IMG/VR virus record: IMGVR_UViG_3300025168_000086
Span: 1-61,750 of that record
Strand: one strand, 5' to 3'
Source of the DNA: a virus
Lineage: Duplodnaviria; Caudoviricetes
DNA length: 61,750 nt
Shown: piece by piece, positions 1 to 37,026 of the stretch
Layout of the letters: each line of letters opens with the position of its first letter
Position numbering within the stretch: the first letter of the stretch is position 1
Made by a program: the position numbers and the translations under genes
Notes under the pieces: model-generated
What the model saw: the letters and a program-made list of their open reading frames with translations, nothing else
Database searches by the model: none
What the model was told of the DNA's origin: nothing

Positions 1-1
1 C

Positions 2-775: not shown

Positions 776-793
776 TTGAAAGGACCGAACACG

Positions 794-1113: not shown

Positions 1114-1122
1114 TGTTCATAG

Positions 1123-1158
1123 GTGCCTCTCGGAGCGATTCGGGAGGCACTTTTTTTT
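1123..1158 (+). terminator. Rho-independent terminator
   Basis: GTGCCTC...GAGGCAC stem followed by T8. Confidence 0.9.
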
Positions 1159-1189
1159 CACTATTTTCACCGAATACACTGTATACACC

Positions 1190-1217
1190 TTGTATACACT
1201 CTGAGACATGGTAAAAT
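1190..1217 (+). promoter_or_regulatory. sigma70-type promoter with extended -10, probably leaderless
   Basis: TTGTAT-16 nt-TAAAAT with TGn; ATG at 1224 only 6 nt after the -10; no SD. Confidence 0.7.
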
Positions 1218-1223
1218 ACACTC

Positions 1224-3389: not shown

Positions 3390-3541
3390 AGAAGAAGGCA
3401 CCCAAATCGAAGCGTGGATCCCAGTGGAACAAGGATGGGGCGGGGCGACAATCGCTCCGCTCCAAGACATGGAGTAGGCAAGATGACAGAGATCCAAAGA
3501 GAATCAGACGAGAGTGGAAAAAAGGTCCTGATGGAGATTGA
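3386..3541 (+). CDS. 51-aa basic hypothetical protein (MKKKAPKSKRGSQW...GPDGD)
   Basis: ATGA overlap with the upstream stop; translated by hand. Confidence 0.5.
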   Translation: MKKKAPKSKRGSQWNKDGAGRQSLRSKTWSRQDDRDPKRIRREWKKGPDGD

Positions 3542-3671
3542 ACTCGATGATCACATTGCGAACGGTCTGAATATGATGGTGTTCAAGACACAGACGAGTG
3601 GCAGAAAAGATGTCTGGGATGCGCGGCAATGCGTGAAAGAACTGATCAATCGATACCAAGAGGTCCGTTGA
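3531..3671 (+). CDS. small hypothetical protein
   Basis: ATG at 3531 overlaps the previous ORF end; start uncertain (track start 3414). Confidence 0.45.
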   Translation: MEIELDDHIANGLNMMVFKTQTSGRKDVWDARQCVKELINRYQEVR

Positions 3672-3682
3672 TAGTAGCCACT

Positions 3683-18600: not shown

Positions 18601-19083
18601 ACATGTGCTGAGTGGGCGAGAAACCCAATCCTCAACGAGCCTGGTCCAAATGGTGAAGATCCACCCTGTGCATGTGAACAAGCTACTGGTGCATGTTGCC
18701 CTCCACCAATAGATGAAAATGATGGAGGAGATCCGACTCAACCACCCGTAATACCACCGTCATGCCAGGAAGGTCGGACAATTGAAGAATGTGCAGAAAA
18801 AACGTACCAATGGCAACAAGCTGGAAACGAAGGATTCTTCACATGGCAAGAAAACGCTGGATGTTGTGTTTGTAATGGAGAGTGTGACGAGCCAAGAGGA
18901 GCCTGTTGCTATGGAGACGATGGGCAATGTCAACCAGATCTTACTTTCACTGAGTGCGTTGAAAGTGGGGGTAATTATGCAGGAAACTTTACGAATTGTT
19001 TAGCGTGTGTTGACGGACCCGGTGGTGGAGTTGGACCTGGTGATGGACCCGGTGGTGCGCCTGGATTTGGTAGTGGATTTTAA
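9700..19083 (+). CDS. giant 3127-aa Cys/Gly/Pro/Asp-rich protein with GACC repeats
   Basis: Uninterrupted 9.4-kb ORF; N-terminal RNCCC; G(A/S)CC modules at 11281, 11407, 11545, 18496, 18688, 18898; no signal peptide. Confidence 0.85.
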   Translation: MSTQRNCCCDSVRPDVPKQAACLGGDKFFVRQGDVPHSENNPSRYYPPNYGTPSNLSDPNDMKTNNGNSCMLCTNTLVQKNSNFPFSLWGTMVVIPGGALGLQDPTDDSVGDAPRIKGDHLAALDLYYGALPPSENERLNLREGLLDPIHSTYNFNRVISLNPSDAENPTIDFPIQEDQLPFKNSYLKKLEQYKQQKRYHVFNVKKKKRKLKLNKSFGMSLKLRVPYFTADKEDQLHVGVKSDYAVLDYLDHNNSLIFLFKSKEKRDEFALTTDYIDIRCIDSDRSQYRSRELSPVMFKDTVHGMMVRFNGKQDGSPQNEREITKTTTNERLQIVLWGYEGNSDPDIPVNIIGAEIYVNRSALLKETPPITNELIEIINPDWTEQINKIADNFEDDDIPDERVSVGDGGTPGTEAAWLCCCNGDEACGKFVPSSPGCLQGGNQTQEEREECCKNVTPSVGQGGNPVGGGNAPCVPILALDTCPYRICCDFNYDSQTIICDCINTDTDTCDGSLSLNRACGKCGSEITGACCLPDGSCEEKTADECAAVGGTLFEGTCAELEASGDCVQMGACCFCDGTCTDNTTQQVCEDNNGTFSSGESCAGLNSDPTTACIAIGACCVKRNDGVSNSCSQDTTEQACDALAANDPGVEDTSWNKCGLCPGSSGGDGDIVDCEGDGNVGEPDPGGGVGTNTENSGVGSFNQTESAESTNTTNTTNSGDGTDGTIDIGDTNDSSDPVLDVDPADDGTPWPNDESFDSTHNQFETGVPDNSGVPDNSGDDGGVDVDVSGGSNAYYMNIKTTYQEGQPIYTMFHHIVDYWYFDWGRSLHGEGPDLSTPEGFYGIGKGKSQYGQDHIFTPQIDHDHFVPGWSENVPFKYPGAPNFGPGQMVPKFDGPSALYGIDDQLDGQTDQNGIFNPVDSVDISREDYLSCRFGISNVDLICHPNKDRGMDARSVWSNSGNNPINEWGNANLGEASIPLPGGQQPTTTIPDLLRSASSANNSGCSPFSRCPHTLHTNLSGYYGHPAEGVAENGTFDVPANQGGSNAYTMWNPGPATANQRKWAFETRWLWQGNGIHSICPKQSNCLAQGAPYNKTPYQSSTNASTYGTRGKSGLSDWQVTTMAADQDSRWLLDIMSYADAKPVFWSPFHNKKANLYDCLVGVMHKMRVFVRGDFWTESLTGPFQTCPDDPFGVCFEGEGASLSKLKPHTFYPPLVNSKMQASADGCQTCFSNNQDPTCPYKDYTKYCTTPKYWIYKCAGVPIFDFELWGLMLEGKLNIGDLSILRKPPHLNFRYSENLDELDRLQALRSIGADIQDIGEKLNDAGILDIRDWREEQRLMYRTWDQFLDKGRPTLDQENAGPYAGFNGDGSRIPGVVWGDACCHVTDDEGTRCDPEIDSRFACTEDNMQWKGRTNLSDPPITEDLKRSELLPIRKRSVVFIKDEDDIDFDPTDKIGLHYVTRDQYEDGLRSLASNGEVDSSYYDPTDLRGAFLGSPQNPGPFARNPVKLAGKYGSATGIQPLTPDLINKFTALESPNLVLSGEMGYYNPDRYNKNPLRQGLSPRQIVDTNGYCGGTTVTNPEDGVVNPTLGATVPGTRRRENDPRWLPYPNENDYYDIAGALDRNETELEAGIITEEEYLAEKERLEEILEEQKNLIRYYKIYLANNPIYLHARPGGWSHVPITRPTEFGLIGSIQPWDLLKKNKGGPYALLDFYGFENAPCWTHGGSANGQGVFPSVAYPYGTQMVYFQIYESSFTGVPIVLPRANTRNPSVGGWSDPNIDCKGPNCGVNPSEPCQPPNFGAPCNQWMDQPQIGVGPGGCINSLSEDGLCNSLVVTGNNHGLRIREKVSYQNGICPQEPLGCQKIVRIDEYWRSYYQETLVFPFDYNCVPSDLRLSPRPTEVPEPAPGGESDGEPELGEEYSIPDPAFPDRGDFNAENIVGCIERVGGIYDDLIPRPNNMQPEHDKVSYGAKLRENTHVCGDDPCSCAGSGGGHAPCNPSQSCPGPDCPSFCGCCCDRVECETCRQCGEVDASGIIEYGIETGGPDKAFQRAPQGWYVPYIVQYSWSETPVFDPPELESEGCGSGGYICKRIADPSNIKPAPVVFGWGAKITYFPILQIEPRFNSGVCRLSRHCPFSIAKSGFSSLKLDQSLPYGSSWYRCGDAIDGPPTPHDCYDDDNLPPRVDLEIKTLKRVKTDVNSRTLFLDELDSGNSNIGYPSAYVNPTEDEDAEDVEFYCSVKRSDEEFEETGIVTDIPLLHWTSTSLGGFREIRFTNIINPMEKHIRNAAKILDPEDVREIYGSPIGWRTFKDLELHKSGFPPNQIVGGPPEYPGWSPPELPSPVPADQRSDHGSPNASGAQDASSPYRFFELNHDEGRKVGAIIPFGGWFGGGRFLEPDTYPSSEIQLDPDTSPPFRPKNLNEKVRGDSYTSDVAYIHWYEAFDNSDFGTDPCLQCDADGEPENCLVQPGEICPTPVNPARGVMAGLPYYRYDNQVNPDGGGGAPYDRKNRDLYVNYGPPGSLPGYASNGRDDYIGVNNRLEAGVADEINREDLADREFRNETVLGTVMFIFDDFEDMYTAAVTNKMSKMSLRIDPDSCETSDCSDWPLRGRYELTNPAFIFDPAVSPPCEGRSNIPLVTYSGRGLQGDRYNDVGYYVWGNIFCDSTSDACIDDNQEDINIPGEKYFPNALAYDLTMLPPDAYTDQEDYTTNGPGSNPIRSVSAPHYDENGDMLYDSCVDSPHIEDGQDGCFDPWCSRVDPAGNDLNCSNDPSDSTICETAPDEFKDSCACVGFRNCLEAFYAKLHTTLSKDNTVKILLEPPACALYGGADPGGLRPICNCTDNEEELGRCTQADDPNLPAPGSLIDDYSETGSGSRPTSAECCAAFSSNPLFAYCNDARFGGWDQNCSDGFAAYLNSPDVSPYCTNLSCSTGVGSCCTAHNTPFCDTPSCCGAVCDIDPNCCEFGWDETCAEWARNPILNEPGPNGEDPPCACEQATGACCPPPIDENDGGDPTQPPVIPPSCQEGRTIEECAEKTYQWQQAGNEGFFTWQENAGCCVCNGECDEPRGACCYGDDGQCQPDLTFTECVESGGNYAGNFTNCLACVDGPGGGVGPGDGPGGAPGFGSGF
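11822..12031 (+). repeat. in-frame tandem repeats in a linker (9-bp CGACTAACA x3; 18-bp TGGCGTACCCGACAATAG x2)
   Basis: Seen directly at 11822-11847 and 11991-12031. Confidence 0.8.
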
Positions 19084-25169: not shown

Positions 25170-25527
25170 AGCTTCTGCTTTTGGTAGAGCTTCACTTAGA
25201 AATACAATAGAAAATCTAGAAAAACATCAGGGTATAGAATCAAACTTAAGTCTTCTGAAAAAAACATTCAGGCAAGTATTTGGATTTCTCTCTGTGTTGG
25301 ACGTAAACCCCAAATCGGCACAGTTCCTCGCTGATTTTGTTCGATCATACAGAAAAACAAAATCATATCCTTTGACATATAAGGGGTTCCGCTCTTGGAC
25401 TAAAACACAGAAAGAAAAAGAAAGAGAAATAAAGCTCCTCAATAGATTCAAACGAGAAGTGAATGGAGTATTTGCTGCATACACTTTGTTGTGTAGAATT
25501 CAACATGATTTGGATAAAACTAAATGA
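25138..25527 (+). CDS. hypothetical protein
   Basis: ORF; start uncertain. Confidence 0.55.
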   Translation: MKNTQISSHIEASAFGRASLRNTIENLEKHQGIESNLSLLKKTFRQVFGFLSVLDVNPKSAQFLADFVRSYRKTKSYPLTYKGFRSWTKTQKEKEREIKLLNRFKREVNGVFAAYTLLCRIQHDLDKTK

Positions 25528-26015
25528 GTGATATGTTCTCCCGTGTAAATATTCCAAACACTATGGAATGGTGTAAATTCAACGACAATTCAAAAGCGGC
25601 TGGATTCCGTCAAATGTTTACGAAGAAATACGGTGGGGAATTCAGATATAATGGTAAGTGGTATCAGTGGGTAGCACCTAATGACATAACATTACAACCA
25701 CCAAATACAATGATGCGTCCAAATCAAGCTCAGGTACACTTTTCAAATAAACAAGACGTTGTAAAAGAGCCGGAAATTGAGTATGATCCAAAAGAGGCGT
25801 TTAAATCCAGAGTAACTATAGATTTAGAAAAAAAATCCGAGTTTAAGCAAAAAAGTTTATATATAATTGTGGATCCGGAAGGAAATGAAACTGAAATTGA
25901 AAACTTCAGTAAATTTTGTCGGGATCATAATCTTAATAAATCAGCGATGTACGAGGTAGCGCGGGGAAAACGCAAACACCACAAAAAGTACACATGCAGA
26001 AAGAAGGAGTATTAA
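25524..26015 (+). CDS. hypothetical protein with C-terminal NUMOD1/HTH-like DNA-binding domain
   Basis: DPEG..IENFSKFCRDHNLNKSAMYEVARGKRKHHKKY. Confidence 0.65.
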   Translation: MSDMFSRVNIPNTMEWCKFNDNSKAAGFRQMFTKKYGGEFRYNGKWYQWVAPNDITLQPPNTMMRPNQAQVHFSNKQDVVKEPEIEYDPKEAFKSRVTIDLEKKSEFKQKSLYIIVDPEGNETEIENFSKFCRDHNLNKSAMYEVARGKRKHHKKYTCRKKEY

Positions 26016-26016
26016 A

Positions 26017-26145
26017 ATGCAAGAATTTTTTAGCGGAACCCTAGGAACAATCTTTTACAGTATAGTAATTTTTGTTGCAGGAGCATTGATTGGTACTCCA
26101 CTCTGGAATTGGACAAAAAATTATTTACCATGGAATAAAGACTGA
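26017..26145 (+). CDS. 42-aa membrane peptide (MQEFFSGTLGTIFYSIVIFVAGALIG...PWNKD)
   Basis: AAGGAG RBS; single TM segment; translated by hand. Confidence 0.7.
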   Translation: MQEFFSGTLGTIFYSIVIFVAGALIGTPLWNWTKNYLPWNKD

Positions 26146-26150
26146 TCTAC

Positions 26151-26260
26151 TATTCGTGTTGAGTTGAGGTATTTCAAAGTACTTTAGCACACGGATAGGG
26201 GGTGATCCAGTCTCAATGAACCCTTTAATATAAAAAGCCTCAAAGCTCAACACGAGTATA
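26151..26260 (+). ncRNA. candidate structured RNA: long stem enclosing a GGATAGGGGGTGATCCAG loop motif
   Basis: TATTCGTGTTGAGTTGAGGT pairs with GCCTCAAAGCTCAACACGAGTA; mismatches are G-U on the + strand. Confidence 0.55.
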
Positions 26261-26291
26261 GGAGAGTCCTTCGGGACTCTCCGTTTTTTTT
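26261..26291 (+). terminator. Rho-independent terminator
   Basis: GGAGAGTCC-TTCG-GGACTCTCC followed by T-tract. Confidence 0.92.
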
Positions 26292-26298
26292 ATAAATA
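26291..26298 (+). promoter_or_regulatory. T4 late promoter TATAAATA
   Basis: Perfect consensus upstream of the GGAG RBS of ORF 26320. Confidence 0.85.
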
Positions 26299-26319
26299 TA
26301 CTAGCTATATGGAGTTATT

Positions 26320-29217
26320 ATGTCGGAAATAAGCTTTACAGTAGGGCGTTATCATGGACTTACGAATTCACACCATGGTGTGTTTAATACAATGCCAGAA
26401 GATCACAGTAAATTTATTTTTGTGACACAGAAGCATGATCCCAAAGATCCTCGATACCCACTCCCAGTAAAACACAGAGAAAAAGCAATAAAAGAAGTTG
26501 CCCCAAAGGACACTTCGGTTGTTCCGGTTCAGAGTGCGTACCATGCGTTCGAACATGCCGTCGATCATGCAAGAAAAAATAATATCAACACAGTCAATGT
26601 TCATGTTGGTGATGATCGAGGAACCGAAATGAACAGACTTGCAGGGCATAAAGACTTCAATGGCATAAATATTAATGTGCGTCCAATAGAAAGAGGAAGT
26701 CTGGGTGGACACTCAGGTACAGCGTTACGTGATGCAGCAAGAGCAGGGAATACCAAGCAAGTAAATAGCATGATGGCTCCAGTAAGCGATAAAACCAAAA
26801 AGGAATTCATAAAGCATATGCAAAAAACAAATGAAAATTTCGATCATGAAAACATTCCAACTTGGTTTAATCTGGAGGAGTTCTATGCGTTTGCTGATGC
26901 ATATGATGGAGTGAGTGAACTCATCACCGAACAGGAGATGACAAAGGAAAAACCACTAACTCGTCAGATGAAGCTGGACGATGCAAGAAGTAACCCTGAT
27001 GGCGACGAAACAGTAGATAGAGATAGAAAACGAACAGATAGAGCTGCATCTAGAGATAATATGAAAACAAATCCATGGCCTGAACTAGCTATTGTTAGAA
27101 CCACACAGGATGGTAAACTTCGCATTATCCCCAAAGCTGATTTTAGTTACAAAAAACATGAACTAGTCACTGGTAACATCAAGGGACTCCCCCCACGAGG
27201 AGAAGTAACTCCCCAGACCACATTCTCAGTGATGCAAGAACCAGACTTCGAGCAATCTAAAACATCAAAACGTTTAATTCAGATGTTTGGTTTAGACTCA
27301 CCACAGATGGGTGGAGGGCAAGCAGCTCCAGAAGGTCAAGCGGTAACTGCTGATCCAGAAGTAGCTCCAATGAATCCAATGATGATGGGACCACCCCCAC
27401 AACCACCAAGGTTACCACCTGACGGAAAAGAGATAACAGGGAAGGGATCAATAAACCCAGACTGGGATCACAGTGTCAATGATATTGACGCTGGTATTGT
27501 ACACGCATGGAACCAAGCAACAGGAAATAATCCATTCAACGGATTACTTGCAGACAACGATCTCAATAAAGTTGGTGAAAGTGAAACGCTAGAAGCTGCC
27601 GGGTTCAGAGCAATAGAAAAAATTATGCAAAAAGTTCCAGCAAACTTCGAAGCGATCATGCTAACACCCGGAGAACAGAAAGTAAACACTAATTGGAGCG
27701 ATATTGGTGGTATGGACAATACACCAGCAACCAATGTTTACTTCAAACCAAAAGATAAAAAGGATACTGCGCAAGAAGTAATTAAAGCCACAATGAAAAT
27801 TGGTATGGCTAAGATTATATCAGATCCAATTGCAAATGGACCTCCTCTTTTTAATGCGGTTTCCATGTCAGATGTTGGTCAGTCATTAGCACAGAATACC
27901 AAAGTGAAAGAGTTTGTTAAAAATACAACAAAGAAATTAAATGAAAGTTTCGTATCATTAGCCGCTGTTCAAGCAAAAACTGAAAGAGAAAAAAAGAACA
28001 CAATTGATGAGTTACCAGAAGTGGCAGAAGCACAAAGAATGTCAAATGAAATATCTTCTGGTATAGAAAATATATTCACTCAAGATAAAAACTTCAAAAA
28101 AGAAATCACTAGAGAATCTCTGACGGGTGAATTGAAATTTGGTGCTGATTCAATCGCCTCAGCAAACTCAATCATAAGTGGAAATAAAGATGGGACAAAC
28201 ACAAATCTAGTTCCTATCACCGACGAATATATTGAGATGATATCCAAAATCCCTAGAATGATGTTGGCTTTCAAATCACCAATGTTTGATTTAGATGTGC
28301 CACAATCAGAGCAAGAATCACAATCCTTTAACTATAGAACTGCGTTACAAATGCAGTCGGGTAAAAACTTACAGCCAGTTCCAATGGAACAAAATAAAAT
28401 CAACCTTAAGAATATGATTTCTTTGAAAGAAGAAGACGGTGGTGGTGATGGTGTTGGTGATGCTGGTTCAGTGGGAGCTGCCGGATATGGTATGAGTGAT
28501 TATGATCCTGATATTCAAAGATATGATGATACTACTACAAACTATACCGAACCATCTTATACTGGTCAATTTAAAGACTATGGTACAGGAAATTCACAAG
28601 AGTACCTAAGATCGGCTATTGAAAATATCGGTGATGATGTATTTAAATTAATGGAATTTATGCAACTTGGTGTGGAGAGTATCGATACCGAACCAATTAA
28701 TTTCGCAGAATATACCATGGACAAATCTACAAAATACAACGAAATTGAAATGAACGGTAAAAAGATAAGGATCCCTATAGATCCTAACTTTGAAATGATC
28801 ACAACCGAAGAAGTTGAGTATATCGACACTATGTTTGATCTAATCATAATGGAAAGAAACTATAAAAGAGAATATGAAACTTTTCATGGTAAACCAGAGC
28901 AACGAAAAAGAAGATCTAAACGAGTTCTTGCAAGAAGAAAATTAGAAAAAGAGGGTAGAGTAACTAAAGGTGATAACAAAGATGTTGATCACAAAAAACC
29001 ACTAAGAAATGGTGGTACTAATTCGGATTCCAATCTAAGAGTTCGCGATAGGAGTTCTAATCGAGCAGAGAACGGCAAAAGAAAATCTGTACGAGAAGAA
29101 CACGGAGCCGGAGAAGAAGGTACGACAAACTTACTCAATAAATATATACAAGGCACCCCCGGTCAATTTTTAAAAAAGAAGAAAAAAGGTGAATCAAAAC
29201 CATGTCAGAAGAAATGA
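26320..29217 (+). CDS. multidomain protein: N-terminal cytidyltransferase-like domain, unknown middle, C-terminal HNH domain
   Basis: FTVGRY...VGDDR...SGTALRDAARAGN; RNYKREY...DVDHKKPLRNGGTNSDSNLRV; EEHGAGEEGT...TPGQ tail. Confidence 0.75.
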   Translation: MSEISFTVGRYHGLTNSHHGVFNTMPEDHSKFIFVTQKHDPKDPRYPLPVKHREKAIKEVAPKDTSVVPVQSAYHAFEHAVDHARKNNINTVNVHVGDDRGTEMNRLAGHKDFNGININVRPIERGSLGGHSGTALRDAARAGNTKQVNSMMAPVSDKTKKEFIKHMQKTNENFDHENIPTWFNLEEFYAFADAYDGVSELITEQEMTKEKPLTRQMKLDDARSNPDGDETVDRDRKRTDRAASRDNMKTNPWPELAIVRTTQDGKLRIIPKADFSYKKHELVTGNIKGLPPRGEVTPQTTFSVMQEPDFEQSKTSKRLIQMFGLDSPQMGGGQAAPEGQAVTADPEVAPMNPMMMGPPPQPPRLPPDGKEITGKGSINPDWDHSVNDIDAGIVHAWNQATGNNPFNGLLADNDLNKVGESETLEAAGFRAIEKIMQKVPANFEAIMLTPGEQKVNTNWSDIGGMDNTPATNVYFKPKDKKDTAQEVIKATMKIGMAKIISDPIANGPPLFNAVSMSDVGQSLAQNTKVKEFVKNTTKKLNESFVSLAAVQAKTEREKKNTIDELPEVAEAQRMSNEISSGIENIFTQDKNFKKEITRESLTGELKFGADSIASANSIISGNKDGTNTNLVPITDEYIEMISKIPRMMLAFKSPMFDLDVPQSEQESQSFNYRTALQMQSGKNLQPVPMEQNKINLKNMISLKEEDGGGDGVGDAGSVGAAGYGMSDYDPDIQRYDDTTTNYTEPSYTGQFKDYGTGNSQEYLRSAIENIGDDVFKLMEFMQLGVESIDTEPINFAEYTMDKSTKYNEIEMNGKKIRIPIDPNFEMITTEEVEYIDTMFDLIIMERNYKREYETFHGKPEQRKRRSKRVLARRKLEKEGRVTKGDNKDVDHKKPLRNGGTNSDSNLRVRDRSSNRAENGKRKSVREEHGAGEEGTTNLLNKYIQGTPGQFLKKKKKGESKPCQKK

Positions 29218-29507
29218 AACCTAAAACATATGCCGGAGATAACACCAGCAAGACATTTACTTTTGCACTTCTAGTTGGATGGGGATTAACTTTAGCAACT
29301 GTAATATGGCAAGTCGCTGTAAAAGATGCTAATTATTCACTACGTCTAAGCACAATTGAATCAGAACTGACGAACTTAGATGACAGGCTAGATACCGCCG
29401 AGGAGTTTAGAATAACTCTCGCATCAAACTTAGCGGAAATTAAAACTGATTTGGTTTGGATAAGAAAAGAACTACAAGAAATGTCCAACAGAGAGCACTC
29501 AAGATGA
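29202..29507 (+). CDS. single-TM coiled-coil protein
   Basis: FALLVGWGLTLATVIW then heptad repeats. Confidence 0.7.
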   Translation: MSEEMKPKTYAGDNTSKTFTFALLVGWGLTLATVIWQVAVKDANYSLRLSTIESELTNLDDRLDTAEEFRITLASNLAEIKTDLVWIRKELQEMSNREHSR

Positions 29508-30283
29508 AACCTAAATCATACCAAAAAACCGTAACTGAGTTAGTAGAAAACGATGTATTTACATCAGAAAATTCTATATTTCAGTTTGTTTCTTTAGAAG
29601 AAATTTCAAAAAACTTCTGTCAAATAAACACAATCAATGAAAGTAGAGAAAAAGAATCACTACGAATGAGGCGAGACGAGATTGTAAGTGTCTCCGTTAA
29701 TATCAGTGAAGCTGAATATAAAGGTAAATCAGTATCTCTCAATAAACCGTTTAGACAGTCTGGTGGGAAAAAGAAATTTGGTGTGTATGTTCGCAACCAA
29801 AAGGGTAACATAATTAAAGTTTCTTTTGGTGATCCAAATATGGAAATTAAACGTGACGATCCAGAGAGAAGAAAAAACTTCCGTGCAAGACATAACTGCG
29901 CAGAAAAGAAAGACAAAACAAAAGCTGGATATTGGAGTTGTCGTCAGTGGAGAGCCGGAAGTAAAGTAGAAGATTCATATGATCCACAAGGTAGTATGTT
30001 GAGTGAAAGAAAGCTCAGTAAAGGTGAAAAAGAAAAACGAGATAATCTGGCTAAAGAACTATTGGACAAGGGTGATTTAAATCCATCGCGAGGATCAGAG
30101 TCTGATATGGCATATGCTATTGCAACAATAAGGGCAAAGGGTGAAAATCCAAAGGCTCGTGGTAAGAACAAAGATAAGGGTAAAAAAAGAAAATCAAAAA
30201 ATGAACAAGTTGATAATTACCTAAATAACAATAGACTAAACAATCTAAACGAAATAACTCGTTACAGGAGAGAAGATAAATGA
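29504..30283 (+). CDS. DUF6321-like conserved T4-like phage protein
   Basis: AEYKGKSVSLNKP, KVSFGDPNM, RRKNFRARHNC, YWSCRQW. Confidence 0.75.
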   Translation: MKPKSYQKTVTELVENDVFTSENSIFQFVSLEEISKNFCQINTINESREKESLRMRRDEIVSVSVNISEAEYKGKSVSLNKPFRQSGGKKKFGVYVRNQKGNIIKVSFGDPNMEIKRDDPERRKNFRARHNCAEKKDKTKAGYWSCRQWRAGSKVEDSYDPQGSMLSERKLSKGEKEKRDNLAKELLDKGDLNPSRGSESDMAYAIATIRAKGENPKARGKNKDKGKKRKSKNEQVDNYLNNNRLNNLNEITRYRREDK

Positions 30284-30840
30284 AAAATTTTAAAGAACTC
30301 ACCAAATCCTTAAATCTCCACGAAATGGAGTATACTGAGGGTGGTGCTCTAGGTGGAAGTCCATCCGCACTAGGTGGCGGACACTCAATCCATAGTGACG
30401 AGGGTGTGCATAGAGTTGATCTCGCTAGTCAGAGAAAAAGAATTGGTGCATTCCTAACTGCATTTGGAAGAAAAGAGTATCTTGATCCCAAAGCAGCTAT
30501 TGGTATTATGAGATCTAAGCTAAACATTATAGGCTTAGACTTTGATTTTAATCCACAAAAATCAAAGTGTGAAGTAGCGGCAGAAACTGGTGAACCATTG
30601 ACATACAGACTCACTCGTTTTGGTGGTGTCTTTGGTACATCACCAGATCATGATTTATTAAAAAATGGATTCATCAATTCAGATGGTATTTCAGATGCAA
30701 GGAACGGTGTTGGTTTAAATTTAATTATTGGAATAGTCGAAACTCCAAATGGTTTATTTAAACTTGATGTAAACATCGAAGATGTAGTAAATGAAACCGA
30801 AGAAGATGACGACGAGGTGAATCCAGAAGAAGAGGAATGA
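30280..30840 (+). CDS. conserved hypothetical T4-like protein
   Basis: ORF with AGGAG RBS; LTRFGGVFG motif. Confidence 0.7.
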   Translation: MKNFKELTKSLNLHEMEYTEGGALGGSPSALGGGHSIHSDEGVHRVDLASQRKRIGAFLTAFGRKEYLDPKAAIGIMRSKLNIIGLDFDFNPQKSKCEVAAETGEPLTYRLTRFGGVFGTSPDHDLLKNGFINSDGISDARNGVGLNLIIGIVETPNGLFKLDVNIEDVVNETEEDDDEVNPEEEE

Positions 30841-30846
30841 TCTTGC

Positions 30847-31236
30847 ATGTTAAGTGAACCTCTTAAAGAGGAAAATTATGATTTTTTTGTGCGTGAAATG
30901 TATGACAATCCTGCCTGTGAAAGTGAAACTGAATTTCAAGAGGATTTGAATAGAGTAAAATACATTAAGAGATTATTTAGTAGGTTTGAAAAAACAGGAG
31001 AGTTGAAAATAAGACTCATACTAAATCACATAATCATATTAAATAATGTTTTTAAATATGGATCATGCACAAGATTACTCTTCTACAAATTAGATGATGA
31101 ATATTATGGGATGCTAAAAAGCTTTTTAGGTTACTTAAACTTAATGCCAATGAACATACCAGAGATAGACTTAGAAATAATATTAAGTGATCACAGAATA
31201 GACATTCAACTAAAGGAACTGATATGCAAAGACTAA
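30847..31236 (+). CDS. conserved T4-like phage protein (DUF7207-like)
   Basis: YDNP..EFQEDLNRVKYIKRLF..LILNHII.LNNVF. Confidence 0.75.
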   Translation: MLSEPLKEENYDFFVREMYDNPACESETEFQEDLNRVKYIKRLFSRFEKTGELKIRLILNHIIILNNVFKYGSCTRLLFYKLDDEYYGMLKSFLGYLNLMPMNIPEIDLEIILSDHRIDIQLKELICKD

Positions 31237-31784
31237 ACGAAAATTTATCTGGATCTGAACTAATAAATGCGTTTACCCTATACACATTTGTACAGGAATT
31301 AACTACTCCATTTATACAAACAGAAGCATACAGGCAAGGTTTAATTGATCAAAATGGGGATCTTCTTAAAAAATACTCAAGCTTAACCATGCAAGAAAAG
31401 TTAGTAATAACACCATTCAAAAAGTTAGTATTCAAAATAAAACAACTTTTTGAAATGATTCCAAATCCAGCAGTAAGCTACAATTTGAAGAGCTTTACAA
31501 CAGCCCTAAAACTATTATCAGAAGAAGGCGAACAAGTTGGAGCAGATAAAGACTACATCTATGAAAACGTAAAATCAATTATGTTTTCCCTGAAGGAAGA
31601 TGCTGGTGCTGCCAGTGGAGTAGCTACAAACTCAATGGGAGCAGGAGCATTTGGTGCTGGTCCAGACGTTGGTATTTCATCTAGAAGTGATGCAATTCAG
31701 GGGGTTGACATTCCTCTTGGTATGACAAGACGGGACTTCTTAAAAAGAAGAAAAAAGAAGAAGAAAAGAAAAAATAAGAAATAA
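31224..31784 (+). CDS. conserved T4-like phage protein
   Basis: LTTPF..TEAY..GLIDQNG motif; basic C-terminus. Confidence 0.7.
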   Translation: MQRLNENLSGSELINAFTLYTFVQELTTPFIQTEAYRQGLIDQNGDLLKKYSSLTMQEKLVITPFKKLVFKIKQLFEMIPNPAVSYNLKSFTTALKLLSEEGEQVGADKDYIYENVKSIMFSLKEDAGAASGVATNSMGAGAFGAGPDVGISSRSDAIQGVDIPLGMTRRDFLKRRKKKKKRKNKK

Positions 31785-32233
31785 TGGAGTTCCTAACAGT
31801 AGAATTTATATCATTGATTGGTAGTAGTCTTATTGGATTTCTTTTTCGTTCAAATGCAGAACGACGTAAAGAGCAAGCAGAAGTATTCAACCGCATCCTA
31901 GATGCGAACAAAGTCACAAACGAAAATCACAACGCTGCTACTGAAAGAGTCACTATTTCTGCTGGTAAGTGGGTAAGAAGGGGGATAGTTATAACTATCC
32001 TTTTTGGAACTATAATAGCACCATTCATACTACCATTCTTTGAAATACCTACCGTGATTGAGATCGAAGAGACTAAGCGGCAGTGGTGGGATATATTTGG
32101 TCTAGCAGGAACATATACAACAACAACAATAGAACCAATTGATGGTTACTTACTTCTCAAGGAGAACAGACAGATACTAATCAGTATTGTTGGTTTCTAT
32201 TTTGGTAACGCAGTGGCGGCAAATAAAGCATGA
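31784..32233 (+). CDS. multi-TM membrane protein (holin-like)
   Basis: Hydrophobic segments, WVRR before a TM, C-terminal IVGFYFG. Confidence 0.55.
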   Translation: MEFLTVEFISLIGSSLIGFLFRSNAERRKEQAEVFNRILDANKVTNENHNAATERVTISAGKWVRRGIVITILFGTIIAPFILPFFEIPTVIEIEETKRQWWDIFGLAGTYTTTTIEPIDGYLLLKENRQILISIVGFYFGNAVAANKA

Positions 32234-32442
32234 AATACTTATTCACACTAATAATAATGAATCTCGTTGCATGTCAGACTGGTCATGTAATCAATAATGC
32301 GAAACCAAAAGTGGGCAACGGAGAAACTCTGCCAGATCCCACAATCCCAACAGACATTTCTGTCTGGACATGGCTTCCTTGGTATATTGTTGCTGTTATT
32401 ATTTTGATAATAATTACAATAAAAATGTGGAAAGAACGTTAA
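32230..32442 (+). CDS. small lipoprotein with C-terminal TM (u-spanin-like architecture)
   Basis: Lipobox LVAC at residue 15; C-terminal TM WYIVAVIILIIITI then KMWKER. Confidence 0.55.
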   Translation: MKYLFTLIIMNLVACQTGHVINNAKPKVGNGETLPDPTIPTDISVWTWLPWYIVAVIILIIITIKMWKER

Positions 32443-32481
32443 TTTAGATATAGATATATTAAACAATTAAAAGTAAAGGAT

Positions 32482-34353
32482 ATGCTAACCATGACATACA
32501 AACCAGAAAACGAAGCCGCAATTGCATATTGGACAAGACCACAGTACATTGACGTAAGTGGTAAGACGAAAATCGGCGTAGCAGCATACGCACTCGAAGG
32601 AATCGAGAAAGTAGAATTCTATCTACATGATGCAGAGAAGATCCCAACACAACTCAGTGGAGATTTTAATCTAGACGGTAAAGTAAACGTCGGAGATTTG
32701 AACTATATCCTCGCAAACTGGGGAACCGTTGGACCAAGAGATCTTGTAAAGGTGCTCTCCAACTGGGGTGCAAAACAAGAATACTCAAACATTCTTGGCA
32801 TTGCTACAGAAGAACGTCTCAACGAAGAGACTGGTGAACTCGAATGGTTCTTTGAATTCAATCCTGTACAGTTCAAGCACGGAGAGCGACTTCGCATCAG
32901 TGCAAAGGTCTACCCCAAGGTTGGCATTCCCCTTGAATTAAAGGGTTCATTCCTCGACTACCCATCAATCTGTGGACTCGATGTATTCCCAAACAACCAG
33001 ACATGGGGACCAGACTATGATCCCGCATTCTATGTAAGTGGCAAGGGTAACGACGAGACTGGTGATGGTTCCAGAGAGAATCCATTTGCTACGATTCATA
33101 AAGCAGCGTACCATGGTCTTGTTAAGGGTGACACCAACGCAGGGCGTGTCATCAAACTACTCGAAGGTGAACATAAACTTGCATCGAACAGCGAAGACCG
33201 TGATCTTCGAAGTGTAAACTCGTCTGGTATGAAAGACGATCAGTGGGTGACAATTGAAGCCGCAGTTAAGGCAGATCTATGTCCTATCGTCGGACAGCAT
33301 AACGGCACATGGAAGTGTAAACTCTACTTCAAAAATGTCCACATCGTACCCGATACAGTAGAAGATGGTGATGGCATACTCAACGGTGGAAGACAAAGCA
33401 TGTACTGTTTCGACAACTGCTTGATCGAAGGAAAGACTAGAGAGCAAGGCAGTGAAATGACAAAGAGTGGACCGCATATCTTCTCGATCGGTTCTACATG
33501 GAAGCGACACTTCCAACCCGCAATGCGTATCGTTGACATCCAGTCACACTATGATCTGTGTCTCGGTGATATTATCCTCACTGGTTATTCTCATCTTGTG
33601 TCGAATCTATCGACATCTCGTCACGGTTGGCATCTCGATGACGATGGTACACCACCACCAAAGAGTGGAGTCCATGTAGACTTGGTCCAGACTCACACTG
33701 GTGGTAAAAATGATACCAAAATTGTTCAGGAGAACATCATCATTCGGTATGTTACTGAGTGGGATCGAAATGGTGGACAACAATTGTTCGGTTCGTTCGG
33801 AAGAAACGATCTAGAGGAATCTGAATTCAGAAACTTTGCGTTCGTAGGAAACCGAATCGCTCAGTGGGCAGGTATCGATGACGAGAACTACCCCGGAGTT
33901 AGACGTGAAGATGGTAGTCTTGTCGTTGGACGAGCAAGAATGTTTGCATGGGGTGTACACAACACTCGCAACTGCTTGTTCCAAGACAACATCATGTTCG
34001 GTAAAGGTAACTGGAACGGTATTGAAACCAAGAACAAGTACACAGGAGAAGAAGTCGAAGTCCAATACCCATTTGAAAATGGTTACGGATCTCCCATGTA
34101 CACCAACGTCATGTGGCGAGACAATTATCGTACACCAGATAAGGAAGAGTATTTCATGCCGACTCCAGATGCTACATCAGGACAGGGAAGTGGTACACCG
34201 GAGGAACTTCGATTCGATCCGGAAACGATGACCTTGCCTTGGACGAGTCCTGCTACGGGTGTTCACTATGAAGGAGATGCATCTAAGTTAGCAAGTCACA
34301 AATGGAATGACTACGCCAACAACGATGATATACTAGAGAAGTGGGATAAGTAA
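32482..34353 (+). CDS. beta-helix (DUF1565-like) protein with dockerin-like insert
   Basis: GDFNLDGKVNVGDLNYILANWG; FYVSGKGNDETGDGSRENPFATI; paralog of 4909..8238. Confidence 0.7.
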   Translation: MLTMTYKPENEAAIAYWTRPQYIDVSGKTKIGVAAYALEGIEKVEFYLHDAEKIPTQLSGDFNLDGKVNVGDLNYILANWGTVGPRDLVKVLSNWGAKQEYSNILGIATEERLNEETGELEWFFEFNPVQFKHGERLRISAKVYPKVGIPLELKGSFLDYPSICGLDVFPNNQTWGPDYDPAFYVSGKGNDETGDGSRENPFATIHKAAYHGLVKGDTNAGRVIKLLEGEHKLASNSEDRDLRSVNSSGMKDDQWVTIEAAVKADLCPIVGQHNGTWKCKLYFKNVHIVPDTVEDGDGILNGGRQSMYCFDNCLIEGKTREQGSEMTKSGPHIFSIGSTWKRHFQPAMRIVDIQSHYDLCLGDIILTGYSHLVSNLSTSRHGWHLDDDGTPPPKSGVHVDLVQTHTGGKNDTKIVQENIIIRYVTEWDRNGGQQLFGSFGRNDLEESEFRNFAFVGNRIAQWAGIDDENYPGVRREDGSLVVGRARMFAWGVHNTRNCLFQDNIMFGKGNWNGIETKNKYTGEEVEVQYPFENGYGSPMYTNVMWRDNYRTPDKEEYFMPTPDATSGQGSGTPEELRFDPETMTLPWTSPATGVHYEGDASKLASHKWNDYANNDDILEKWDK

Positions 34354-34371
34354 AATTTAAACACTTTACAG

Positions 34372-34408
34372 AAACACCGGTTGGGGGACATCTCCAACCG
34401 GTGTTTTT
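34372..34408 (+). terminator. Rho-independent terminator
   Basis: AAACACCGGTTGG/CCAACCGGTGTTT stem with T-tract. Confidence 0.85.
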
Positions 34409-34462
34409 AATTAATAAAATACAAAATTTATACAAAAAATAGCATATTTAGCCATATATACT

Positions 34463-35221
34463 ATGATGTCAAAAAACAAACTAGTAGCATATGCAGTGAG
34501 CTTGCTAGTCGTCATGAACCAACTCTCAGGCTGTTCTACATTAGAAAAGTCTTCACAAAAACCCACAGAAAATCAAACAGAATCACCACCAGAATTTAAA
34601 CCATTCATCCCTCTTGATGATAATGCGTTTGGTTTTGTAGGATCTCTACGTCGTTCAACAGGTAAAGTTCTAGGTTCCGCTGTTCTGATAGAAACAAATG
34701 TTGCACTTACTGCGGCGCACTGTTTAATTGATACCGATATTTCATACGTAGAATTTGCTGGGAAAAACTACCCAATCGACTACACCATATGCTACGAAGA
34801 CGGAACACATATAAACCACGACATTGGGTTAGTATTTCTAACAGAAAATGTTATTGGAGTTAATCCAGTTAGCAGAATTGATGACGTTATTAGTAGCATA
34901 AAAAAATGGGATTATGTTACAACAATTGGCTACTCTAGGGGATTTAAAAAGGCATCGTCACTCAGCACATTTCGATACTACGGTGTTCTATACAACGAAG
35001 AAAATCAAATCAAGATGCTACCACATAATGGGAGTATCTGGTTTGGTGACTCTGGTGGTGGTTTATTTTGGTTTGGTCCCAAAGGATTTCAATTAATAGG
35101 AATCCTAATCAGCTTTTCACAGATTGACGGAACAATCATAGAAAATTCATCTACTCGTGTTGATTGTTATCAAAATTGGATAGATCACGAAATAGAGAAG
35201 AATAAAGAATTAAATTCTTAA
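34463..35221 (+). CDS. trypsin-like (S1) serine protease, lipoprotein
   Basis: LTAAHC, HDIGL, GDSGG triad motifs; lipobox LSGC. Confidence 0.88.
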   Translation: MMSKNKLVAYAVSLLVVMNQLSGCSTLEKSSQKPTENQTESPPEFKPFIPLDDNAFGFVGSLRRSTGKVLGSAVLIETNVALTAAHCLIDTDISYVEFAGKNYPIDYTICYEDGTHINHDIGLVFLTENVIGVNPVSRIDDVISSIKKWDYVTTIGYSRGFKKASSLSTFRYYGVLYNEENQIKMLPHNGSIWFGDSGGGLFWFGPKGFQLIGILISFSQIDGTIIENSSTRVDCYQNWIDHEIEKNKELNS

Positions 35222-35784
35222 ATCATAGTATATTTTATATTATCATATAAACACTTACAAACAAAATACGCATCAACAATATCTGATACGGGGTTAGTTA
35301 CGCCTGTTTTGTCTGGAGTTATAATTTTAGCTAGATTATGAGTTGTTTCCCGGTGAAAAGCACTGTGCATGTCAGCTTTATTTGCATTACCTTTCCCACA
35401 AGCTCTCTTCTTAACTTCAGACGGAGTTATAACTTCTACTGGAATATTATTCTGAAAGAATTTATATTTTAGTATGCCAGTATTTTCTGCAATATGGAAT
35501 ACTCTACCCTTTGCACCATAGGCATATCCCTCTAAACCAACTTGATCACAACCATAGCAAACATCGGCTGCCCATGCGGAAATTGTATCATATCGTTCAC
35601 AGTCGTGATTATATTCTTCAAAAACACTACCATGTATATTTGACAAAAAAGTCTTTGCATATTTTTTAGTATCTGTAAGATAGTAAAATTTACATTTATT
35701 AAAAGAGAAAGTATCGGTAATTTCTCCCCTATAAACACAAATTGCTGGACCACACAATGAATAATCGATTCCGGCTATTAACAT
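35218..35784 (-). CDS. RuvC-like Holliday junction resolvase
   Basis: GIDYS, LEGYAYG, PSEVKK..GKGNANK, DIVDAY. Confidence 0.8.
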   Translation of the reverse strand: MLIAGIDYSLCGPAICVYRGEITDTFSFNKCKFYYLTDTKKYAKTFLSNIHGSVFEEYNHDCERYDTISAWAADVCYGCDQVGLEGYAYGAKGRVFHIAENTGILKYKFFQNNIPVEVITPSEVKKRACGKGNANKADMHSAFHRETTHNLAKIITPDKTGVTNPVSDIVDAYFVCKCLYDNIKYTMI

Positions 35785-35840
35785 AATTTTTCCTTCTAAG
35801 TAGTTATATTAAATAAATACATCAAAAGAGGAGAAATAAA

Positions 35841-35915
35841 ATGCCAGTAATTAATATCACTAGAAAAAGTATTCGGTACAAAATAAAGAACATCAAGAGA
35901 GTATATTCGTATTAA
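35841..35915 (+). CDS. 24-aa basic peptide MPVINITRKSIRYKIKNIKRVYSY
   Basis: AATAAATA late-like promoter (35812) and GAGGAG RBS; translated by hand. Confidence 0.5.
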   Translation: MPVINITRKSIRYKIKNIKRVYSY

Positions 35916-35947
35916 AAATAACAAGAGGGGACTAACGTCCCCTCTTG
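35914..35947 (-). terminator. terminator for the porin transcript (possibly bidirectional)
   Basis: CAAGAGGGGAC/GTCCCCTCTTG stem; TTATTTTT follows on the minus strand. Confidence 0.85.
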
Positions 35948-35969
35948 CACACGGATAGAGGGTGATCCA
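35947..35969. repeat. 23-nt element 22/23 identical to 26187-26209
   Basis: GCACACGGATAG(A/G)GGGTGATCCA. Confidence 0.9.
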
Positions 35970-35997
35970 ACCCCCCAGTATAATATAACTTTATATA

Positions 35998-37026
35998 TTA
36001 AAAGCTAACAGTCAACATGCTCTTGATGAGATACTGTCCGTCAGTGGTGGAAGTTTCCCATCCAGTATTGGTAAGATCATACCCAGAATCGACTGCGTTT
36101 AGCGCATACCCGAAAGAGTTGGTCCACCTTACATTGGAATTAAAGATAACATTCGCACCAATAGTAGCGAGATTTAGATCCGAATTGACGCCATCCATGA
36201 CACCATATTCGTACTGACCAAATAGCTGTACGTCATGGCTAAGAAGATAGCTGGCAGTACCAACGACAGAATAATTACTCCAACTGTCGTTGACTCGGTT
36301 CGACGCAACATAAGCAGCATCAAACTTAAATTCGCCACACTCTACACCAGCATCAAACGTAAAGCTATCGTAACTATCGGTAGCAGTCTGTTCGTTTGCA
36401 AATGCACCACCAAGAGTGATGTTCTCAAAACCATCATATTCTACGCGTCCACTAAGTCCGTAGTCATTGTCACCAAAGCTACTGTTGTCAGTGTTAAAAC
36501 CATCATTGTATGATGCGTAGAAAGAAAAATCATCGAAGCTCTTGCTGACTTCGATACCCTGTGACCAACCTTGGCCATATGTGAGGGCTGTGACAGTATA
36601 GTCACCAGTGACAAGCGTGGTTGGATCAGAGACGTACCCGCTATAGAAGCTGGTAACGAACTGCCCCGCCTTCACATCAAAACCACCGATGTTCTTACTG
36701 AGGAAAGCATCCTTCAGTACAAACTCGGTGTCACTCCACTGACCACTTACTCCATAGTCAAATCCATAAACCTCACCCGAAAAGGCAATTCGAGCACGAT
36801 CAATGTCAAATCCCCGAGTTGTTTCGTTTGATCCACCAGCGTTCCATAGATAACGGAACTGAATGAAACCAGAAACATCCACGGTGACGGGAGATTCTTC
36901 AGACTTGAGACTCATGTGAGTCATCGAGTCTTCGCGAACACCCATGATAAGCTCATGGACATTTACGTTTTCGGCTGCACCAGTCATAAGAGGTGCAGAA
37001 AGAAGTACTGTTGCGATATTAATCAT
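35998..37026 (-). CDS. outer-membrane porin (OprO/OprP-like beta-barrel)
   Basis: Signal-like N-terminus, SGFIQFRY..GFDIDRARIAFSG, LKDAF..KAGQF, amphipathic strands, terminal Phe (LTVSF). Confidence 0.8.
   Translation of the reverse strand: MINIATVLLSAPLMTGAAENVNVHELIMGVREDSMTHMSLKSEESPVTVDVSGFIQFRYLWNAGGSNETTRGFDIDRARIAFSGEVYGFDYGVSGQWSDTEFVLKDAFLSKNIGGFDVKAGQFVTSFYSGYVSDPTTLVTGDYTVTALTYGQGWSQGIEVSKSFDDFSFYASYNDGFNTDNSSFGDNDYGLSGRVEYDGFENITLGGAFANEQTATDSYDSFTFDAGVECGEFKFDAAYVASNRVNDSWSNYSVVGTASYLLSHDVQLFGQYEYGVMDGVNSDLNLATIGANVIFNSNVRWTNSFGYALNAVDSGYDLTNTGWETSTTDGQYLIKSMLTVSF

What the first reader, a model, noticed from the sequence alone, without database searches (positions are those of the whole stretch)
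26151..26291. Structured RNA displaying an anti-16S (extended Shine-Dalgarno) motif in a large loop
Seen: a roughly 20-bp stem (26151-26170 with 26237-26258) whose mismatches are G-U only on the + strand encloses about 65 nt containing GGATAGGGGGTGATCCAG, a 5-codon ORF (ATG AAC CCT TTA ATA TAA), then a UUCG terminator. Known: the 16S 3' end reads ...CTGGATCACCTCCTT, so GGGGGUGAUCCAG could pair with it well beyond a normal SD (using G-U pairs). Inference: a phage small RNA that binds or sequesters 30S subunits (ribosome decoy), or a micro-ORF translation sensor. The motif serves no real gene here.
Basis: partly seen in the sequence, partly recalled or inferred. Interest (0 to 1): 0.82.

Follow-up and report, generated by a model that had tools for sequence, protein, structure and literature searches.

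The report
Phage RNA pair mimicking SD helix
A marine T4-like phage carries a conserved folded RNA that displays a ribosome-binding-site look-alike with no gene behind it, plus a second RNA that resembles the ribosome's own mRNA-binding tail; the two match each other and probably pair, a device I could not find described.

Summary
At 26146-26291 (+) an outer stem encloses a loop carrying GGATAGGGGGTGATCCAG, followed by a UUCG terminator and a TATAAATA box. Eight distinct versions from three diverged phage groups keep the outer stem (12 of 20 pairs changed on both sides), an inner hairpin and the motif in its apical loop. The 5-codon ORF is present in only 2 of 8.

The new point is a second copy at 35947-35972. 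It lies on the sense strand of a minus-strand porin-like gene, just before that gene's terminator and upstream of a RuvC-like resolvase gene. There the RNA reads CUGGAUCACC..., like the 16S 3' end (13 identical letters in two relatives). The site-1 RNA is its complement (15 letters perfectly complementary to the 16S tail in two relatives).

In all four genomes holding both sites, the two sense RNAs can form a 16-28 bp helix whose only irregularities are G.U pairs. The flanks changed in step at both sites and away from the 16S sequence.

My best reading is a phage-encoded pair of complementary RNAs that act on each other (confidence 0.45). There is no Rfam match. No strand-resolved RNA data were available.

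The parts
26017..26145 (+). 42-aa ORF (small hydrophobic protein). The element lies in its 3' untranslated region.
   Evidence: Its C-terminal half is conserved in groups I and II.
26150..26169 (+). 5' arm of the outer stem.
   Evidence: It shows compensatory changes with the 3' arm.
26187..26212 (+). Site 1 core, GCACACGGATAGGGGGTGATCCAGTC. It is SD-like and complementary to the 16S 3' end. It sits within 38 nt that are invariant in all 5 group I versions.
26196..26227 (+). Inner hairpin. The stem UAGGGGGU (26196-26203) pairs with ACCCUUUA (26220-26227). The apical loop GAUCCAGUCUCAAUGA is 26204-26219.
   Evidence: The equivalent stems are AG(A/G)UAGG/CCUAUUU in group II and AAAGGG/CCCUUU in group III.
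26217..26234 (+). It is not conserved.
   Evidence: An ATG is present in 2 of 8 versions.
26238..26261 (+). 3' arm of the outer stem.
26261..26291 (+). Intrinsic terminator: 9-bp stem, UUCG loop, T8.
   Evidence: It is kept, with compensatory changes, in all 8 versions.
26291..26298 (+). TATAAATA box (the T4-type late promoter consensus, recalled) ahead of the 965-aa gene.
   Evidence: It is conserved in groups I and II.
35947..35972 (-). Site 2 core. On the minus (sense) strand it reads ...GGGGUUGGAUCACCCUCUAUCCGUGUGC, which resembles the 16S 3' end and is complementary to the site-1 RNA.
35921..35948 (-). Intrinsic terminator of the porin-like gene, directly 3' of the site-2 core on the minus strand.
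   Evidence: 12 pairs plus TATTTTTAAT. A compensatory G-C to A-U change is seen in L003.
35998..37026 (-). 342-aa porin-like gene (signal-peptide-like N-terminus, C-terminal Phe). Its 3' untranslated region carries site 2.
   Evidence: No Pfam or PHROG hit. The porin label is my inference from the sequence.
35218..35784 (-). RuvC-like resolvase gene. It is always the next gene downstream of site 2 and its terminator.

Best explanation
The element is one half of a phage-encoded pair of complementary RNAs.

Site 1 (26146-26291, + strand) is the structured 3' end of an upstream operon. An outer stem and an inner hairpin present GAUCCAG, preceded by a G-rich SD-like run, in an apical loop just before a terminator.

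Site 2 (35947-35972, read on the - strand) is a single-stranded or loop-displayed seed just upstream of the terminator that precedes the resolvase gene. It reads like the 16S 3' tail.

I infer that the two RNAs meet through their complementary loops (GAUCCA with UGGAUC) and zip into a 16-28 bp duplex. One would then act as antisense regulator or sponge of the other, most likely changing RNA stability (a duplex that long is a plausible RNase III substrate) or the availability of the seed.

Shown: the structures, their conservation, the complementarity and its co-variation.
Inferred: that both strands are transcribed as assumed, that the RNAs meet, and what follows from their meeting.

Why both strands copy the SD:anti-SD helix remains unexplained. 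It suggests a link to translation initiation.
For: 1. There are two copies per genome and no more. G000 has 2 and G001 (142 kb) has 2 within 3 mismatches of the 23-mer. Further GTGATCCAG 9-mers in G001 lie in coding sequence.

2. The cores are under purifying selection. In group I, 38 nt are invariant at site 1 in 5 versions. At site 2 the 24 nt from GCACAC to GATCCA are invariant in all 6 versions; the two letters after them vary in W and L004. Flanking coding sequence varies at third positions throughout.

3. The sense-sense helix is 28, 27, 18 and 16 contiguous bp in the 4 genomes holding both sites, interrupted only by G.U pairs. The two antisense strands give only 12-14 bp.

4. The flanks co-vary between the sites and away from the 16S sequence. 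After CCAG, site 1 has CAG in groups II and III, opposite CUG or UUG in site 2. In group I it has UC opposite GA. The 16S has CGG at that place.

5. Predicted heterodimers stay favourable after the cost of unfolding: ddG -17.7 (W), -25.0 (G001) and -8.1 (G003) kcal/mol. The W duplex is -61.3 against -21.7 +/- 4.0 for shuffles.

6. Site 1 sits in a co-varying RNA structure. Site 2 is always directly 5' of an intrinsic terminator, in three different gene contexts.

7. Relative DNA orientation does not matter. The sites are direct repeats in groups I and II and inverted in group III. This argues against a recombination-type DNA role.

8. A covariance model built without group III found the group III site 1 at E = 7e-8 to 1e-7.
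Against: - There is no strand-resolved expression evidence. RNA-library contigs were shallow and fragmentary. One covered 26014-26192 only, and contigs cannot give strand or ends.
- Only four genomes (three groups) hold both sites, so the number of independent compensatory events is small. The bias towards G.U differences is worth roughly p = 0.01 if only transitions are counted (my estimate).
- Each site keeps its orientation relative to its own genes simply because a whole block was inverted. That orientation is therefore not independent evidence for an RNA-level role.
- Pairing alone does not explain why the sequences copy the 16S tail and its complement (13- and 15-mers). Each RNA could instead act separately on ribosomes or on mRNAs.
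- Gene conversion between the copies could imitate co-variation.
- In group II the shared block is only 17-18 nt and the predicted ddG is modest (-8.1).
Confidence: 0.45

Rival explanations
1. Site 1 acts on the ribosome directly. The loop-displayed SD-like sequence would bind the 16S 3' tail of 30S subunits as a decoy, a standby or parking site, or a shield for the RNA 3' end. Site 2 would be unrelated, or would be a 16S-tail decoy that competes for site 1.
For: - Site 1 has 15 nt perfectly complementary to the 16S 3' end in L122 and L137, and 14-16 bp with G.U pairs in groups I and III.
- Its duplex with the last 15 nt of 16S is -24.1 or -25.0 kcal/mol, against a best value of -13.1 among 64 real ORF starts.
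- With the last 13 nt, a complex is still favoured after unfolding (ddG -7.1 and -6.2).
- GGGGG in place of GGAGG keeps pairing with CCUCC through a wobble pair.
Against: - The SD core is the variable part and GUGAUCCAG the invariant part.
- Part of the G run is in the inner stem.
- The conserved CCAG(C) would pair with bases in the helix 45 stem (recalled structure), which are not free in mature 30S.
- The flanks follow site 2, not the 16S.
- The conserved GCACAC... part has no role under this reading.
- Titrating ribosomes stoichiometrically seems costly (inference).
Confidence: 0.2
2. Both sites are binding sites for one phage or host protein, on RNA or on double-stranded DNA. The likeness to the 16S would be incidental, or would reflect a protein that normally recognises the 16S tail.
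For: - A strictly invariant 9-26 nt core occurs at exactly two places per genome.
- The relative orientation of the sites is irrelevant, as expected for a DNA-binding protein.
- Co-variation of both sites could equally track a protein.
Against: - A double-stranded DNA site gives no reason for all differences between the copies to be G.U-compatible on one pair of strands.
- It also gives no reason for site 1 to sit in a co-varying RNA stem and hairpin loop.
- On RNA the two sense strands are complementary, not identical, so one RNA-binding protein could not read both.
- No candidate protein was identified.
Confidence: 0.12
3. Site 2 with its terminator is a leader or attenuator for the resolvase gene, and site-1 RNA (or the ribosome) modulates read-through. 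This is a special case of the pairing model with a defined output, namely timed expression of the resolvase.
For: - Site 2 plus a terminator lies immediately upstream of the RuvC-like gene in all three groups, whatever gene precedes it.
- In group I the duplex with site 1 would reach the first two bases of the terminator stem.
- Temporal control of the T4 resolvase gene 49 through RNA structure is known (recalled, not checked here).
Against: - The overlap with the terminator stem is minimal, and it is absent in groups II and III.
- In group I about 135 nt and an opposite-strand small ORF separate the terminator from the resolvase start.
- No alternative anti-terminator fold was found.
Confidence: 0.08
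4. The sequences are relics without present function: an old strong ribosome-binding site and its copy, kept alike by gene conversion.
For: - Real genes in other viral contigs use TAGGAGGTGATCCAG followed by ATG or GTG at 0-2 nt (for example L194, L208, L128, L164).
- Two of the 8 versions still have an ATG.
Against: - The cores are invariant while neighbouring intergenic and third-codon positions vary.
- The element persists across groups whose flanking proteins are only 28-51% identical.
- The surrounding stems show compensatory changes.
- The copies are not identical, so they have not been homogenised recently.
Confidence: 0.05

Closest known systems
c4 antisense RNA of phages P1 and P7
   Same: A phage-encoded RNA acts by pairing short complementary stretches, presented in loops, with a target on another part of the phage's own transcripts near a ribosome-binding-site-like sequence. 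This description comes from passages of the review PMC12197685.
   Different: c4 blocks a real ribosome-binding site to stop translation of ant. Here the SD-like partner has no ORF. The sequences are unrelated, and there is no Rfam hit to any family. The phage is lytic and T4-like.
icaR mRNA of Staphylococcus aureus (3' UTR anti-SD motif pairing with its own 5' UTR)
   Same: An anti-SD-like sequence in a 3' untranslated region pairs with an SD sequence. Source: title and start of abstract of PMC3868564, seen in the listing.
   Different: In icaR the partner is the mRNA's own functional SD. The porin-like gene's own ribosome-binding site (UAAAGGAGAUCUACUAUG) has no extended match to site 2. The partner here is an orphan SD on another transcript.
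Prophage-encoded anti-sRNAs (AgvB, AsxR) and other RNA sponges
   Same: A phage-encoded RNA imitates a target site and titrates a regulatory RNA. Sources: listing of PMC4104026 and passages of PMC12197685.
   Different: Those sponges act on host sRNAs. Here both partners are phage-encoded, and they copy the two strands of the SD:anti-SD helix.
STAB-SD 5' mRNA stabilisers (cryIIIA of Bacillus thuringiensis, phage SP82). Recalled, no paper read.
   Same: An SD-like sequence that starts no translation and is thought to bind 30S subunits.
   Different: Those lie near the 5' end of the RNA and protect what follows in Firmicutes. Site 1 lies in a 3' region between a stop codon and a terminator, in a phage whose porin-like gene suggests a Gram-negative host.

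Membership tests
Any Rfam 15 family | Match at or above the family's gathering score. | tested here: not met
   There were 0 matches in the whole window. The best sub-threshold matches were terminator-driven: sbrA at 19.7 bits against a gathering score of 45, and sraA at 22.9 against 56.
Functional ribosome-binding site (SD plus start codon) | A start codon about 5-10 nt after the SD core and a conserved reading frame. | tested here: not met
   An ATG is present in 2 of 8 versions, 12-13 nt after the G run. Indels are not multiples of three.
Intrinsic terminator | G+C-rich hairpin followed by a U tract on the transcribed strand. | tested here: met
   26261-26282 plus T8. 35948-35921 on the minus strand. 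Three terminators in L381.
Antisense or sponge RNA pair | Extended complementarity between two transcripts, kept through compensatory change. | tested here: met
   Helices of 16-28 bp in 4 of 4 genomes, with flank co-variation and favourable cofolds.
Antisense or sponge RNA pair | Both RNAs are made, and they meet in the cell. | not testable with these tools
   Only contigs of RNA libraries were available, with no strand or end information.
icaR-type 3' UTR-5' UTR pairing | The 3' UTR motif is complementary to the same mRNA's ribosome-binding site. | tested here: not met
   The ribosome-binding site of the porin-like gene has only an ordinary AAGGAG.
STAB-SD 5' stabiliser | The SD-like sequence lies near the 5' end of the stabilised RNA. 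| tested here: not met
   Site 1 lies 50-60 nt after a stop codon and about 50 nt before a terminator.
T7-type single-subunit RNA polymerase promoter (considered because of GCACAC..ATAGGG) | A phage with such a polymerase, and many copies of the promoter ahead of genes. | tested here: not met
   The phage is T4-like (gp43-type DNA polymerase, 52% identity to cyanomyoviruses). There are only two copies. One is followed by a terminator and the other points into convergent genes.
T4-like phage (context) | A gp43-type family B DNA polymerase and late promoter boxes. | tested here: met
   phrog_262 with E = 0. 52% identity to cyanomyovirus gp43. TATAAATA at 26291-26298 (the consensus is recalled).

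The most novel reading that the evidence does not exclude
The phage makes RNA copies of both strands of the Shine-Dalgarno:anti-Shine-Dalgarno helix and uses them as a two-part switch on translation initiation. The 16S-tail look-alike (site 2) would compete with ribosomes for SD sequences of host or early phage mRNAs, or act as a decoy for a factor that attacks the 16S tail. The orphan super-SD (site 1) would bind 30S subunits or neutralise the look-alike at a set time of infection.
Probability: 0.15. Interest if true: 0.9.

Novelty: new variant of a known kind. Interest (0 to 1): 0.72.

Why it matters
Regulatory RNAs of lytic T4-like phages are almost unknown, and marine members of the group are abundant.

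This is a compact, conserved two-RNA module with clear, testable pairing rules. Its sequences copy the most conserved RNA-RNA contact of bacterial translation.

If the two RNAs only regulate each other, this adds a new family of phage antisense or sponge RNAs. If either one also touches ribosomes or SD sequences, it would be a new way for a virus to reprogram host translation. It would also be a natural template for orthogonal translation control.

Tried and rejected
Searches that found nothing useful
- Rfam gave no family and ARAGORN found no tRNA or tmRNA.
- blastn of the locus against 50,697 GenBank phage records gave no match for 25500-27000. For 26140-26300 only the terminator part matched.
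- The RNA-library contigs (X15, X17, X18, X19) were shallow fragments and say nothing about strand, ends or level.
- Searches of the paper library for an anti-SD mimic or a 16S-mimic phage RNA found nothing relevant. A 2025 review of phage sRNAs has 0 occurrences of '16S' (passages only). Supplements were not consulted.

Ideas rejected
- N4-like phage with hairpin promoters, which I considered because of the 3127-aa ORF: dropped once the DNA polymerase placed the phage among T4-likes.
- T7-type promoter: rejected (see membership test).
- Micro-ORF sensor: rejected, because an ATG is present in only 2 of 8 versions.
- The competing fold in which CUAUUCGUGU pairs with ACACGGAUAG. It is the minimum-energy fold and for L033 and L040. 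I rejected it as the conserved structure because the complementarity is lost in group II (L122).
- Phage ribosomal protein bS21 as a link: absent from G000, G001, G003 and G004. These records are incomplete.
- icaR-like pairing with the porin gene's own ribosome-binding site: no extended match.
- A third copy in G003 (an exact 13-mer, L124). It lies inside a trypsin-like gene, and the window's homologue lacks it at that place. I treated it as coincidence, though its chance expectation is low.
- GGTGATCC occurs 9 times against 1.8 expected. The 7 extra copies lie inside long ORFs.

Limits of the comparative sampling
- The search for related loci with the 965-aa protein found nothing. With alignment A3 it found only the 4 records already known.
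- Of 76 RuvC loci, only L043-L048 carry the element.

Full report
WHAT THE WINDOW IS

The window is an IMG/VR viral contig of 61,750 b, estimated 34% complete. Its family B DNA polymerase matches phrog_262 and is about 52% identical to gp43 of cyanomyoviruses. It is therefore a distant marine T4-like phage with no close cultured relative. Runs that hold the sequence are mostly marine metagenomes.

THE OBSERVATION

The region 26146-26319 is intergenic, between a 42-aa ORF and a 965-aa ORF. A TATAAATA box follows at 26291-26298.

Without the terminator the RNA folds into an outer stem plus an inner hairpin. The inner stem is UAGGGGGU paired with ACCCUUUA, and its 16-nt loop begins GAUCCAG. The energy is -35.1 kcal/mol, z = -4.46.

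Rfam and ARAGORN found nothing.

RELATIVES OF SITE 1

Pattern scans of viral and metagenome contigs gave 8 distinct versions of this element.
- Group I has five: the window, L005, L031, L033 and L040.
- Group II has two: L122 and L137. There the downstream protein is only 30-31% identical to the window's.
- Group III has one: L381. Its RuvC-like protein is 51% identical to the window's and its large protein 28-49%.

In group I, 38 nt around the motif are invariant while neighbouring codons vary at third positions.

All 8 versions have:
- an outer stem of 14-23 pairs;
- an inner hairpin whose loop carries GUGAUCCAG;
- a terminator.

The stems differ in sequence between groups. On a model-fitted alignment, 12 of 20 outer-stem pairs show changes on both sides. 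Overall, 17 pairs do so, against 6.6 in shuffles and 2-6 in slid controls. That alignment is biased towards the structure, but it also misregisters group II, which lowers the counts. RNAalifold on the plain MAFFT alignment predicts the same outer stem and terminator.

A covariance model built without L381 found L381 at E = 7e-8 to 1e-7.

The ATG of the micro-ORF is present in 2 of 8 versions.

A SECOND SITE

The 23-mer core recurs once in the window, at 35947-35969, with one mismatch. The related 142-kb record G001 likewise has exactly two copies.

Site 2 lies between a minus-strand 342-aa gene and a minus-strand RuvC-like gene. I read the 342-aa gene as porin-like because of its signal-peptide-like start and C-terminal Phe. 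It has no family hit.

On the minus strand the order is: stop codon, 3' untranslated region, site 2, then an intrinsic terminator of 12 pairs with a U-rich tail. The transcript that surely contains site 2 is therefore the porin-sense one. In it the core reads ...UUGGAUCACCCUCUAUCCGUGUGC, the complement of site 1.

Nine distinct versions of site 2 were found: six in group I, two in group II (L119, also held as L046 and L047, and L121, also held as L048) and one in group III (L381).

The context differs between groups.
- In group II the small opposite-strand ORF of group I is missing. The porin-like gene, the terminator and the RuvC-like gene follow one another on one strand.
- In group III the porin-like gene is absent. 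The seed UUGCUGGAUCACCUCUGUAUUU lies between two terminators just upstream of the RuvC-like gene. Site 1 follows 1.1 kb downstream on the same strand.
- The two sites are thus direct repeats on the DNA in groups I and II and inverted in group III. A block of about 10 kb has been turned round.

RELATION TO 16S rRNA

In L272 it lies at 6674-6689 of an Rfam SSU match that ends at 6690.

Compared with that tail:
- Site-2 sense RNA shares 13 identical letters in L121 and L381, and 9-12 in the other versions.
- Site-1 RNA is perfectly complementary over 15 letters in L122 and L137, over 11 in L381 and over 10 in group I. Group I extends to 14-16 pairs with G.U.

Matches of 9-10 letters are common by chance in 61 kb. 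The 13- and 15-mers in short conserved elements are not.

Site 1 is by far the strongest complement to the 16S tail in the window.

DO THE TWO SITES PAIR?

In each of the four genomes with both sites, the two sense RNAs can form one contiguous helix: 28 bp (window), 27 (G001), 18 (G003) and 16 (L381). These helices contain 1-4 G.U pairs and no mismatches. The two antisense strands reach only 12-14 bp. The differences between the copies therefore run in the direction that keeps sense-sense pairing.

Beyond CCAG the two sites changed together and away from the 16S. Site 1 has CAG opposite CUG or UUG in groups II and III, and UC opposite GA in group I, where the 16S has CGG.

Cofolding predicts stable heterodimers after unfolding costs: -17.7, -25.0 and -8.1 kcal/mol.

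Both partners tend to show the central hexamer in a hairpin loop, the geometry used by known antisense systems (recalled).

For:
- the very strong complementarity to the 16S tail;
- its preservation through wobble pairing (GGGGG for GGAGG).

Against:
- The SD core is the variable part and GUGAUCCAG the invariant part.
- Part of the G run is inside the inner stem.
- The extension would pair with bases that I recall as lying within helix 45.
- The flanks track site 2.

I cannot exclude that site 1 also binds 30S subunits, or that site 2 also binds SD sequences. The rRNA likeness itself demands an explanation that mutual pairing alone does not give.

LIMITS

- There are no strand-resolved RNA data.
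- The host is unknown. The 16S tail used for comparison is an example from a SAR116 genome.
- There are few independent genomes.

VERDICT

The feature is real and conserved, and it is not in Rfam or in the literature I could search. It is best read as one half of a complementary RNA pair that copies the SD:anti-SD helix. Its function is inferred, not shown.

Noticed in passing
window 35998-37026 (-): A 342-aa protein with a signal-peptide-like N-terminus and a C-terminal Phe, 80-88% identical among group I relatives. It looks like an outer-membrane porin carried by the phage, but it has no Pfam or PHROG hit.
   Followed up: partly
window 26320-29217 (+): A 965-aa protein with an N-terminal HxGH nucleotidyltransferase-like start and a C-terminal HNH-like segment (phrog_4590, residues 846-922). 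The group III homologue (676 aa) lacks the N-terminal domain.
   Followed up: partly
window 9700-19083 (+): A 3127-aa ORF with no Pfam hit, in a T4-like phage.
   Followed up: no
window about 25500-35800 compared with L381: The block from the HNH-like gene to the trypsin-like gene is inverted relative to the RNR-RuvC block in groups I and II, compared with group III.
   Followed up: partly
window 1-4000: G+C is 0.52-0.53 here against 0.34-0.46 elsewhere. The stretch holds a phrog_459 'peptidase' / CobT-like gene (1224-3389).
   Followed up: no
window 35841-35915 (+): A 24-aa very basic ORF with a strong SD, conserved in group I only. It lies opposite to the porin-like and RuvC-like genes. Its transcript would read through site 2 in the site-1 sense.
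   Followed up: partly
L139, L225, L138, L159, L145, L147, L162 (unrelated viral contigs): TAGGAGGTGATCCAG occurs at or just after a stop codon and is followed by a TTGACT...TATAAAT promoter-like stretch and a hairpin, with no nearby ATG. These may be orphan super-SD sequences in other phage families.
   Followed up: no
L124 (G003, position 13969): An exact 13-mer, AGTGATCCAGCAG, lies inside a trypsin-like protease gene on the opposite strand. The window's homologue (34463-35221) lacks it at that place.
   Followed up: partly
window 36015-35988 (-): A sigma-70-like TTGACT-16-TAAAGT sits at the very end of the porin-like gene and is kept in relatives (TTAACT...TACAGT in L003). It could drive a separate short RNA carrying site 2.
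   Followed up: no
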